A program made the position numbers and the translations under genes. A stretch of 11,057 nt of DNA, from IMG/VR virus record IMGVR_UViG_2923360383_000006, one strand, 5' to 3'. The notes under the pieces were generated by a model, which worked only from the letters and a program-made list of their open reading frames with translations, was not told where the DNA came from and made no database searches. Source of the DNA: a virus (Duplodnaviria > Heunggongvirae > Uroviricota > Caudoviricetes). Position 1 is the first letter of the stretch, and every line of letters begins with the position of its first letter. Of the stretch, positions 1 to 310 are shown piece after piece.

Positions 1-115
1 CTACAGAACAGTTGGGTCGTAGCAGCCGTTCACCTGCGAACAAGAAAGTGCTACGGGTCTGAACTTTTGCCCCCAACTCTCCAAGAGACCGGCAAAAACC
101 CTGACGGAGGTATCA

Positions 116-259
116 ATGGATACTTTAAGAAAGGGCTCAGACCTGCTGTCTGCACGTGTGATTGCCGTTACAGGTTTAATCGCAGCACTTGGCAATTTAG
201 GTCTATGCCCAATAGCCGTAGTGCTAGTATGTATAGCTTTAGTTATCATGCTGAAGTAA
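116..259 (+). CDS. Small hydrophobic membrane peptide (47 aa), function unknown
   Basis: ATG at 116 with GGAGG 5 nt upstream; translation MDTLRKGSDLLSARVIAVTGLIAALGNLGLCPIAVVLVCIALVIMLK has a polar N-terminus and one predicted TM segment. Below the 60-aa cutoff of the ORF track. Overlapped by a longer antisense ORF (1..303) that looks non-protein-like. Confidence 0.4.
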   Translation: MDTLRKGSDLLSARVIAVTGLIAALGNLGLCPIAVVLVCIALVIMLK

Positions 260-277
260 TGACAGCGTAACAAGCTC

Positions 278-310
278 GGCCCAGCTTTCGCTGGGCCTCC
301 CATTTCTACC
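278..310 (+). terminator. Candidate intrinsic terminator after the small ORF
   Basis: Perfect 8-bp stem GGCCCAGC / GCTGGGCC with TTTC loop at 278-297, followed by a weak pyrimidine-rich tract (TCCCATTTCTACC). Confidence 0.3.

What the first reader, a model, noticed from the sequence alone, without database searches (positions are those of the whole stretch)
1..310. Unannotated 47-aa hydrophobic peptide with strong RBS and a downstream hairpin
A short ORF with a near-ideal Shine-Dalgarno and a single predicted TM helix is the profile of small membrane proteins, including type I toxins and holin-like peptides. It sits at the island periphery opposite in orientation to the island genes. No similarity to Hok, Ldr, TisB, ShoB, Ibs or DinQ was recognisable.
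Basis: partly seen in the sequence, partly recalled or inferred. Interest (0 to 1): 0.45.

Follow-up and report, generated by a model that had tools for sequence, protein, structure and literature searches.

The report
Small membrane peptide with locked mRNA
The 47-codon ORF is a real, conserved gene for a tiny membrane peptide at the tRNA-Ile edge of phage satellites and prophages in many enterobacteria, and its mRNA is predicted to fold so that its own ribosome-binding site is hidden, as in small RNA-controlled toxin genes, though toxicity and an antidote RNA are not shown.

Summary
The ORF is at 116-259 (+), GGAGG at 106-110, and an 8-bp hairpin at 278-297.

The window is a phage-satellite island inserted in the 3' end of tRNA-Ile(CAU) ileX of E. 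coli. The ORF starts about 215 nt inside the attL end.

The gene is not a chance ORF. Homologues of 47-49 aa occupy the same place next to this tRNA in Salmonella, Klebsiella, Enterobacter, Serratia, Citrobacter and Proteus, beside different cargo. No profile library or source names the family.

The new finding is at the RNA level:
- About 340 nt (leader, ORF, hairpin) are conserved as one module.
- The module fits a four-way junction in which the leader pairs with codons 8-10 and codons 10-12 pair with the stop-codon region.
- Covariation supports three of its five helices.
- Synonymous sites of codons 7-11 are frozen in 29 variants. The only change is compensated in the leader.
- The "near-ideal" SD is predicted to pair with codons 2-5 (-14 kcal/mol, z -4.1).

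My best reading is a translationally locked, type I-toxin-like membrane peptide. No conserved antisense RNA or own promoter was found, and toxicity is untested. It may be read through from the ileX promoter.

The parts
1..115 (+). Conserved 5' leader of the small-ORF mRNA. It is truncated by the window edge; the 5' hairpin GGC-N4-GCC and a TAT(T/A)NT -10-like element lie about 10-35 nt left of position 1.
   Evidence: Blocks CAGTTGGGTCGTRGCRGCC, AAAGYGCYACGGGTCTG and TTGCYCCCAACTC are near-invariant in 17-29 diverged homologues. They are kept even where the integrase arm repeats differ (L066).
14..17 (+). Helix H1, 5' strand (GGGT). It pairs with 274-277 (GCTC) and closes the 5' leader onto the 3' UTR.
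   Evidence: 100% of cells are paired in 17 sequences. Only wobble-compatible one-sided changes occur, and there is no double change.
18..55 (+). Stem-loop P1: CGTAGCA (18-24) pairs with TGCTACG (49-55). The apical part varies in length and its 3' side is A-rich.
   Evidence: Two pairs covary, A-U<->G-C in 6 and 8 of 17 sequences, and 100% of cells are paired.
56..62 (+). Helix H3, 5' strand (GGTCTGA). It pairs with ORF codons 8-10 (TCAGACC, 137-143) and encloses the whole translation initiation region.
   Evidence: There is a compensatory G-C->A-U change: leader GGATTTGA goes with ORF GAT in L065/L066/L067/L090/L110, and GGGTTTGA is a U.G intermediate.
65..97 (+). Stem-loop P2: TTTTGCC (65-71) pairs with GGCAAAA (91-97). 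It encloses CCCAACTC and a CTC..GAG mini-hairpin.
   Evidence: P2 is predicted in the full-length and local folds of most lineages, with different sequences (UUUUGCC/GGCAAAA, CCUUGC/GCAAGG, UUCCUAC/GUAGGAA).
99..135 (+). Translation-initiation hairpin. SD residues 107-110 and 111-114 pair with codons 2-4 (119-126), the AUG (116-118) lies in the loop, and an outer stem pairs 99-102 with 132-135.
   Evidence: dG is -14.0 kcal/mol, z -4.08. P(unpaired SD) is 0.01 in the full-length fold. Equivalent hairpins of -8.7 to -17.6 kcal/mol are built from different sequences in 13 long-leader lineages.
106..110 (+). Shine-Dalgarno GGAGG, 5 nt upstream of the ATG.
   Evidence: Read directly from the sequence. 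A GGAG-type motif is conserved at this position in all homologues.
116..259 (+). ORF of 47 aa. The N-terminus is polar (M-x4-K-GSDLLS-x-R), followed by about 33 hydrophobic residues with a central G-x-G-x-x-P break and a C-terminal basic residue.
   Evidence: (pN/pS 0.52, the lowest of six frames).
144..150 (+). Helix H4, 5' strand (TGCTGTC, codons 10-12). It pairs with 261-267 (GACAGCG), immediately after the stop codon.
   Evidence: 96.6% of cells are paired. The 3' strand varies only in wobble-compatible ways (GACAGC, GGCAGC, GATAGC, GATGGC), and there is no double change.
261..277 (+). Conserved 3' UTR block GACAGCGTAACAAGCTC. It holds the 3' strands of H4 (261-267) and H1 (274-277).
   Evidence: On the opposite strand this block supplies the T-run that makes the hairpin a terminator for antisense transcription in several lineages.
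278..297 (.). Terminal hairpin GGCCCAGC-TTTC-GCTGGGCC.
   Evidence: Four covarying pairs. The sense-strand tail TCCCATTTCT fails the U-tract criterion. The hairpin is scored as a terminator for the opposite strand in L007 and L066.

Best explanation
SHOWN
- Positions 116-259 encode a genuine, conserved 47-aa membrane peptide.
- It belongs to a conserved module of about 340 nt (structured leader, ORF, hairpin). The module sits 215-330 nt downstream of tRNA-Ile(CAU) ileX and in the same orientation.
- That position is the attL end of integrated phage satellites and prophage-like elements across Enterobacterales.
- The module is under strong selection at the RNA level as well as the protein level.

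INFERRED FROM FOLDING AND COVARIATION
- The mRNA adopts a closed four-way junction.
- The leader pairs with the 3' UTR (H1), forms stem-loop P1 and pairs with codons 8-10 (H3). Codons 10-12 pair with the stop-codon region (H4).
- Inside the H3 loop, the Shine-Dalgarno sequence pairs with codons 2-5.
- The full-length transcript should therefore be poorly translated until something opens it: processing, a trans-acting factor, or loss of a repressor.

INFERRED BY ANALOGY
- This is the design of type I toxin mRNAs such as hok, tisB, dinQ, zorO and aapA1.
- The peptide is therefore most likely a membrane-active, growth-arresting peptide. Its release would stabilise the element or abort phage infection.

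OPEN
- No antitoxin RNA was identified.
- No own sigma-70 promoter passes a consensus scan.
- No terminator separates the module from ileX, whose native terminator is displaced to attR by integration. The mRNA may therefore be made as the 3' trailer of the tRNA transcript.
For: Location:
- The island lies between ileX and nfeF. A 49-bp att repeat is present, and the native ileX terminator is now at the attR side.

Conservation and coding:
- Homologues were found.
- Length is fixed at 47-49 aa, and the sense frame has the lowest pN/pS (0.52).
- Hosts include Salmonella (>=1000 contigs), Klebsiella, Enterobacter, Serratia, Citrobacter and Proteus.

RNA structure:
- The five-helix model is 98% paired, against 29-38% when partners are slid. 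Seven pairs change on both sides.
- The leader-ORF helix shows a G-C->A-U compensation.
- In 29 ORF variants retrieved through the leader alone, codons 7-11 use one codon each (GGC, TCA, GAC, CTG, CTG). The only exception is two GAT copies, and these are compensated in the leader.
- Other invariant residues use 3-5 codons.
- The window copy folds at -116.9 kcal/mol, z -4.06.
- The SD hairpin is -14.0 kcal/mol, z -4.08. Equivalent hairpins occur in 13 lineages with different sequences.
- P(unpaired SD) is <=0.1 in 10 of 17 full-length folds.

Other points:
- The leader is kept where the integrase arm repeats differ (L066), so integrase binding does not explain its conservation.
- No promoter and no terminator were found between the tRNA and the ORF.
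- The peptide is helical and hydrophobic.
Against: - No conserved antisense or divergent sRNA promoter was found. The best candidate, TTGACA-18-TAGAGT inside the ORF, exists only in the 'DSIKGSDLLSK' lineages and is absent from this window.
- The island contains no trans complementarity to the module.
- No Rfam family matches.
- No toxin family matches.
- Toxicity, translation and transcript ends are untested.
- Helices H1 and H4 have only one-sided, wobble-compatible changes.
- The helices were derived from these same sequences, which inflates the 'cells paired' measure.
- In the short-leader clade the SD hairpin is weak (z about 0 to -1.3).
- pN/pS of 0.52 is only moderate. The invariant GSDLLS motif may be held by RNA pairing rather than by protein function.
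Confidence: 0.45

Rival explanations
1. A non-toxic accessory ('moron'-like) small inner-membrane protein of the mobile element. It could act in superinfection exclusion or injection blocking, or modulate a host membrane protein. Its synthesis would be kept low or conditional by the structured mRNA.
For: - It sits at the cargo or hotspot end of the element, next to variable genes: a DUF4062-like protein in Citrobacter and other unknown ORFs elsewhere.
- It has its own hairpin.
- The peptide is hydrophobic and helical.
- No antitoxin was found.
- Many characterised small enterobacterial membrane proteins are regulators rather than toxins (general knowledge).
Against: - The conserved SD sequestration and 5'-3' closure are unusually elaborate for a constitutively useful protein.
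- No PADLOC or PHROGs family matches.
- There is no recognisable own promoter.
Confidence: 0.3
2. The RNA is the primary functional unit. The module would be the element-supplied 3' trailer of ileX. It would replace the lost tRNA terminator, insulate the element and its cos region from tRNA read-through and from convergent late transcription, and/or act as a regulatory RNA. The peptide would be secondary or dual-function.
For: - The native ileX terminator is displaced to attR, and no terminator precedes the module.
- Nucleotide conservation is highest in the leader and in codons 7-12, including synonymous sites.
- The hairpin works as a terminator for the opposite strand in several lineages.
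- The most conserved peptide motif coincides exactly with the RNA helices.
Against: - Start codon, SD, reading frame, length (47-49 aa), hydrophobic character and C-terminal basic residues are kept through deep divergence, with only in-frame indels.
- A simple terminator would need about 30 nt, not 340.
Confidence: 0.2
3. A chance ORF in integrase arm-site (attP P') DNA. Conservation would reflect recombination-protein binding sites only.
For: It lies within about 400 bp of the att core, and arm-type repeats CCAGGATACYTATAGGATACC flank both island ends.
Against: - The arm repeats end about 60 nt before the conserved leader.
- L065/L066 have different arm repeats (AAGTGTC x2) but the same leader and ORF.
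- RNA-type covariation and codon-position patterns are not expected for protein-binding DNA.
Confidence: 0.03

Closest known systems
hok/sok-type and other enterobacterial type I toxin loci (hok, ldr, tisB/istR-1, dinQ/agrB, zorO/orzO, shoB/ohsC); comparison made from general knowledge of these systems
   Same: - A peptide of about 50 aa or less, hydrophobic and membrane-directed.
- A long, conserved, highly structured mRNA.
- A primary transcript predicted to be translationally inert because the SD is paired.
- 5'-3' closure, like the fold-back inhibition of hok.
- Location on mobile or accessory DNA.
   Different: - No sequence or profile similarity to any of these families.
- No conserved antisense or divergent sRNA gene, and no matching Rfam antitoxin family.
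- No overlapping mok-like reading frame.
- The coding region itself, codons 8-12, supplies two strands of the junction.
- The locus is fixed next to one tRNA gene.
aapA1/IsoA1 of Helicobacter pylori (type I toxin whose full-length mRNA is locked by a 5'-3' long-distance interaction and an SD-sequestering stem); from general knowledge
   Same: The logic is the same: a long-distance interaction plus local SD sequestration keeps the primary transcript silent.
   Different: - The organism, the peptide family and the RNA sequence are all unrelated.
- IsoA1 antisense RNA is a defined partner there, and none is defined here.
- Activation by 3' trimming is not shown here.
Protein-coding genes co-transcribed downstream of tRNA genes in E. 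coli (tyrT-tpr, the thrU-tyrU-glyT-thrT-tufB operon) and functional tRNA 3' trailers (3'ETS-leuZ); from general knowledge
   Same: - Same-strand position directly downstream of a tRNA gene.
- No intervening terminator or recognisable promoter.
   Different: - Here the arrangement is created by integration of a mobile element, which displaces the native tRNA terminator.
- Co-transcription is inferred, not shown.
Phage and prophage 'morons' and satellite accessory hotspots; from general knowledge
   Same: A small autonomous unit at the edge of the element, opposite in orientation to the structural genes and beside variable cargo.
   Different: - A moron is defined by its own promoter and terminator. 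No promoter was found, and the hairpin lacks a sense-strand U-tract.
- Unlike cargo, this unit is the conserved part while its neighbours vary.

Membership tests
Type I toxin-antitoxin system (generic definition) | Small (<60 aa) hydrophobic peptide with a predicted transmembrane segment | tested here: met
   47 aa with about 33 consecutive hydrophobic residues. AlphaFold2 gives helices 3-28 and 31-46.
Type I toxin-antitoxin system (generic definition) | Toxin mRNA with a structured leader that limits translation (SD sequestration or long-range pairing) | tested here: met
   Tested in silico only. The five-helix model is 98% paired with 7 covarying pairs. The SD hairpin is -14 kcal/mol, z -4.08. 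P(unpaired SD) is 0.01.
Type I toxin-antitoxin system (generic definition) | Antisense (cis) or adjacent divergent (trans) small RNA antitoxin | tested here: inconclusive
   No conserved promoter was found on the opposite strand. TTGACA-18-TAGAGT occurs only in some lineages and not in this window. There is no complementary segment elsewhere in the island and no Rfam antitoxin hit. Consensus scans can miss weak promoters.
Type I toxin-antitoxin system (generic definition) | Growth arrest or killing on overexpression, rescued by the RNA antitoxin | not testable with these tools
   This needs inducible expression and viability or membrane-potential assays.
Hok/Gef, Ldr, TisB, Ibs, ShoB, DinQ, ZorO toxin families | Sequence or profile similarity to the family model | tested here: not met
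   hmmscan against Pfam-A and NCBIfam at E<=10 gave no toxin family for the window peptide or for 5 diverged homologues. The only hit was a sub-threshold lipid-attachment motif. An HMM search of 1.84 billion representatives returned only family members.
Hok/Gef | Overlapping upstream reading frame (mok) to which toxin translation is coupled | tested here: not met
   The overlapping frames are not conserved. Their longest open stretches range from 18 to 87 aa between homologues, and their pN/pS is 0.85 and 1.49.
Rho-independent terminator (for the 278-297 hairpin) | G+C-rich stem-loop directly followed by a U-tract on the transcribed strand | tested here: not met
   The stem is present and covaries. 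The sense tail TCCCATTTCT fails the scan. On the opposite strand the criterion is met in L007 and L066.
Phage moron | Own promoter and own terminator flanking a single gene | tested here: inconclusive
   No sigma-70 promoter passes the scan between the tRNA and the ORF in L003, L005 or L007. A weak, partly conserved TAT(T/A)NT element lies about 10 nt before the 5' hairpin, but it is TATTAA in this E. coli copy.
Holin | Membrane protein encoded beside an endolysin or spanin lysis cassette | tested here: not met
   No lysis genes are in the window or in related loci next to the ORF. No PHROGs hit.

The most novel reading that the evidence does not exclude
The module is an integration-state-dependent toxin or effector cassette. 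The element carries a silent, promoter-less, structurally locked small-peptide mRNA. It is transcribed only when integration places it behind the ileX tRNA promoter, so that it is made as the tRNA's 3' trailer. tRNA 3' processing or helper-phage infection would then control unlocking of the four-way junction. This would be a new family of type I-like toxins with no dedicated antisense RNA, wired to a host tRNA gene.
Probability: 0.15. Interest if true: 0.8.

Novelty: new variant of a known kind. Interest (0 to 1): 0.5.

Why it matters
- The peptide family is widespread in clinically important Enterobacterales; one variant alone is on at least 1000 Salmonella contigs. It has no name, no Pfam, NCBIfam or PHROGs model, and is often not annotated at all.
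- Its mRNA is an unusually clear natural case of coding sequence constrained by RNA structure. Five consecutive codons have no synonymous variation, and the single exception is compensated in the leader.
- If the peptide is a toxin, this is a new type I-like family. It could stabilise phage satellites and prophages at ileX or contribute to abortive infection.
- If it is transcribed from the ileX promoter, it would show how an integrating element can borrow a host tRNA promoter.
- Either way, it is a well-defined target for small-protein and RNA-structure experiments.

Tried and rejected
- Rfam at gathering and at E<=10 found only the neighbouring tRNA.
- Pfam, NCBIfam, PHROGs and PADLOC returned no family.
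- The profile search of 1.84 billion representatives gave only two more family members and one spurious repeat protein.
- The 15-mer GCTACGGGTCTGAAC in IMG/VR gave mostly chance matches in unrelated genes. These were discarded after inspection.
- About half of the metagenome hits to the leader pattern were GC-rich chance matches and were also discarded.
- The 100-aa ORF on the - strand (1-303) was rejected as the real gene. Its length is not conserved and its frame has a higher pN/pS than the sense frame.
- Integrase arm-site conservation was rejected as the explanation for the leader, because L065/L066 have different arm repeats but the same leader.
- No conserved antisense promoter was found inside or downstream of the module.
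- No trans-complementary RNA was found elsewhere in the island; there were only chance-level hits.
- A link to AUA codons, which this tRNA reads, was rejected as a conserved feature. They are enriched in some lineages (6 of 9 Ile codons in L007) but absent in others.
- Column-wise pair counting for the SD hairpin and for P2 was abandoned because the helix register differs between lineages in the MAFFT alignments. Per-sequence folds were used instead.
- Five literature searches, including one for the peptide motifs, found nothing on this family.

Full report
**1. The observation**

- an ATG-initiated ORF at 116-259 (+) encoding MDTLRKGSDLLSARVIAVTGLIAALGNLGLCPIAVVLVCIALVIMLK;
- GGAGG at 106-110, 5 nt upstream of the ATG;
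- a perfect 8-bp/4-nt hairpin at 278-297.

No tRNA and no Rfam family lie in the window.

**2. Where it sits**

The window is 100% identical to E. coli APEC 16-1068. It lies between tRNA-Ile ileX (downstream of mug) and nfeF. In K-12 these two are 53 bp apart, and that gap contains the ileX terminator.

Comparing the two genomes shows the following:
- An 11.4-kb element is inserted in the 3' part of ileX.
- A 49-bp copy of the tRNA 3' end forms attR next to the integrase.
- The native ileX terminator is now on the attR side.

The element is satellite-like. It carries an integrase, an HTH protein, an Icd-like protein, DUF4222, a D5-type primase, SSB, a ClpP-protease/major-capsid fusion and DUF1441, all on the - strand.

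Window position 1 is 97 nt inside the element from attL. The ORF is therefore about 215 nt from the tRNA 3' end, on the same strand as the tRNA and opposite to every island gene.

**3. It is a real gene**

Searches of protein databases found 47-48-aa relatives only, at 72-100% identity. A profile search of 1.84 billion representatives added two more.

The loci that encode them all have the ORF 213-241 nt after a tRNA(CAU) 3' end or a contig end. The neighbours differ:
- other protease-capsid satellites;
- elements with TerL, TerS, HNH, portal and connector genes;
- other cargo.

An exact 18-mer from codons 7-12 found 26 IMG/VR loci. All of them encode 47-49-aa homologues whose hydrophobic part has diverged strongly.

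Coding tests gave these results:
- Across 26 distinct ORFs, the sense frame has the lowest pN/pS of the six frames (0.52; median dN/dS 0.35).
- The only length changes are one in-frame inserted codon and C-terminal extensions of 1-2 residues.
- The 100-aa antisense ORF of the window is not conserved.

Cluster look-ups place the family in Salmonella (>=1000 contigs), Klebsiella, Enterobacter, Serratia, Citrobacter, Proteus, Edwardsiella, Yokenella and Kosakonia. It is always named 'hypothetical protein'. Only 28 of 5426 complete E. coli genomes carry it, all 100% identical over positions 60-310, and RefSeq leaves it unannotated.

No Pfam, NCBIfam, PHROGs or PADLOC family matches. AlphaFold2 gives two helices, 3-28 and 31-46, with a break at G29-L30, just before the (G/C)-P (pLDDT 74).

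**4. The unexpected part: the RNA**

Between E. coli and Citrobacter, the 115 nt upstream of the ATG are more conserved than the 3' half of the ORF. Wider alignments show near-invariant blocks in three places: the leader, codons 7-12, and just after the stop codon.

RNAalifold and my pair counts on 15 and 17 sequences support a contiguous four-way junction plus a terminal hairpin.

| Helix | Strands (window coordinates) | Support (unless stated) |
|---|---|---|
| H1 | 14-17 with 274-277 | 100% paired; one-sided wobble-compatible changes only |
| P1 | 18-24 with 49-55 | two covarying pairs |
| H3 | 56-62 with 137-143 (codons 8-10) | one compensatory pair |
| H4 | 144-150 (codons 10-12) with 261-267, right after the stop | one-sided wobble-compatible changes only |
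| Terminal hairpin | 278-297 | four covarying pairs |

Overall, 98% of cells are paired, against 29-38% when the partners are slid by 1-3 columns. Seven pairs change on both sides. One caveat applies: the helices were derived from these same sequences, which favours the observed register.

To remove the bias of my 18-mer search, I retrieved homologues through a leader-only pattern. In the 29 distinct ORFs obtained this way:
- Codons 7-11 are GGC 29/29, TCA 29/29, GAC 27/29, CTG 29/29 and CTG 29/29.
- Other invariant residues use 3-5 different codons.
- The two GAT variants sit with leader GGATTTGA instead of GGGTCTGA. That is exactly the G-C to A-U change H3 predicts.
- GGGTTTGA copies represent the U.G intermediate.

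L065/L066 have different integrase arm repeats but the same leader. Integrase binding therefore does not explain the conservation.

**5. The ribosome-binding site is masked**

- In the full-length fold of the window copy (-116 kcal/mol), the SD has P(unpaired) = 0.01. A 336-nt version folds at -116.9 kcal/mol, z -4.06.
- Locally, residues 107-114 pair with codons 2-4 and the AUG sits in the tetraloop. The hairpin is -14.0 kcal/mol, z -4.08.
- Thirteen long-leader lineages build an equivalent hairpin from different sequences (-8.7 to -17.6 kcal/mol).
- Ten of these have z <= -3.2. The variable residues 2-6 of the peptide co-vary with the sequence upstream of the SD.
- A short-leader clade has a weaker hairpin.
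- A further stem-loop, P2 (65-71 with 91-97), is also kept with different sequences.

**6. Transcription and the missing partner**

- No sigma-70 promoter passes the scan between the tRNA and the ORF in E. coli, Citrobacter or L007.
- In L019 the only sense promoter is the tRNA's own.
- No terminator lies between the tRNA and the ORF in any of the four.
- A partly conserved TAT(T/A)NT element precedes the 5' hairpin, but it has no -35 partner and reads TATTAA in this E. coli copy.

Read-through from ileX and a weak own promoter are therefore both open.

- The hairpin lacks a sense-strand U-tract. In several lineages it is a canonical terminator for the opposite strand.
- A near-consensus antisense promoter, TTGACA-18-TAGAGT, overlaps codons 3-13 in the 'DSIKGSDLLSK' lineages only.
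- No conserved convergent promoter lies downstream.
- No complementary segment lies elsewhere in the island.
- Literature searches found nothing on this family.

**7. Interpretation**

*Shown:* a conserved small membrane-peptide gene embedded in a conserved, structured RNA module at the attL/ileX end of diverse integrated elements.

*Inferred:* the primary transcript is translationally locked.

*By analogy:* hok, tisB, dinQ, zorO and aapA1 share this design (general knowledge). The most likely function is therefore a type I-toxin-like membrane peptide that stabilises the element or aborts infection.

Membership of the type I class is not established. The antitoxin RNA is not found and toxicity is untested. 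Membership of any named toxin family is rejected by profile searches.

The rivals are:
- a tightly regulated, non-toxic accessory membrane protein;
- a module whose main job is RNA-level, acting as a tRNA trailer, insulator or terminator;
- chance or arm-site DNA, which is essentially excluded.

**8. Verdict**

The finding is more interesting than a bare small ORF because of the RNA architecture and its fixed association with ileX. It remains computational. I score interest at 0.5 and novelty as a new variant of a known kind.

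Noticed in passing
window 383-468: This 86-nt segment is 86-92% identical to the extreme ends of the genomes of Shigella phage SfII (positions 23-108) and Salmonella phage ST64B (40062-40147 of 40149), and to internal positions in other records. It looks like the helper-type cos region carried by the satellite. It is also the likely reason why 691 E. coli genomes match part of window 1-900.
   Followed up: partly
L003:171-219 and L003:11551-11599 (attL/attR, outside the window); L003:259-279 and L003:11422-11442: A 49-bp direct repeat of the ileX 3' end flanks the island. A 21-bp double repeat, CCAGGATAC(T/C)TATAGGATACC, occurs in the same orientation near both ends and probably represents integrase arm-type sites. 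L065/L066 have AAGTGTC x2 instead.
   Followed up: partly
window 490-515 (- strand): A strong terminator-like hairpin, ACCGAGGGCGGAATACCGCCTTCGGT followed by a T-rich tail, lies on the - strand about 500 nt beyond the last - strand gene (which ends at 1000). The intervening 500 nt have no conserved ORF.
   Followed up: no
L017:4800-5167 (-); L020, L029 and L039 P1 loops: In one lineage the apical loop of P1 (AAAGTCGCTGGATCAACAC) resembles the T-arm of tRNA-Ile (TTGGTCGCTGGTTCAAGTCC). In L017 the tRNA gene is fused directly into this loop, as if the region between the two look-alike sequences had been deleted. That removes the tRNA 3' end and half of P1.
   Followed up: no
L036, L038 (also L020, L029, L039), codons 3-13 of the ORF, opposite strand: A near-consensus sigma-70 promoter, TTGACA-18-TAGAGT (10/12), points antisense across the start codon and SD. 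It is created by the Ser-Lys (TCA AAG) and Asp-Ser-Ile codons. It is a candidate cis-antisense RNA promoter in these lineages only.
   Followed up: partly
L007:6001-6144 and L012:262-405: Some homologues are rich in AUA codons (6 of 9 and 5 of 8 Ile codons). AUA is the codon read by the adjacent tRNA-Ile(CAU). Other homologues have none, and the window copy has 2 of 5.
   Followed up: partly
L005:6191-7039 (-); L066:6749-7567 (-); L002:9999-10712: The gene next to the module differs between elements. It is a 282-aa protein with a sub-threshold DUF4062 match in Citrobacter and an unassigned 272-aa protein in L066. The related E. coli CFSAN064035 island instead carries a HEPN-domain protein elsewhere, between the protease-capsid and primase genes. 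The variable genes beside the module suggest a variable accessory or defence hotspot there.
   Followed up: no
window 8957-9643 (-) and 1000-1287 (-): Two island ORFs have no Pfam family: one of 228 aa overlapping the integrase stop, and one of 95 aa downstream of DUF1441.
   Followed up: no
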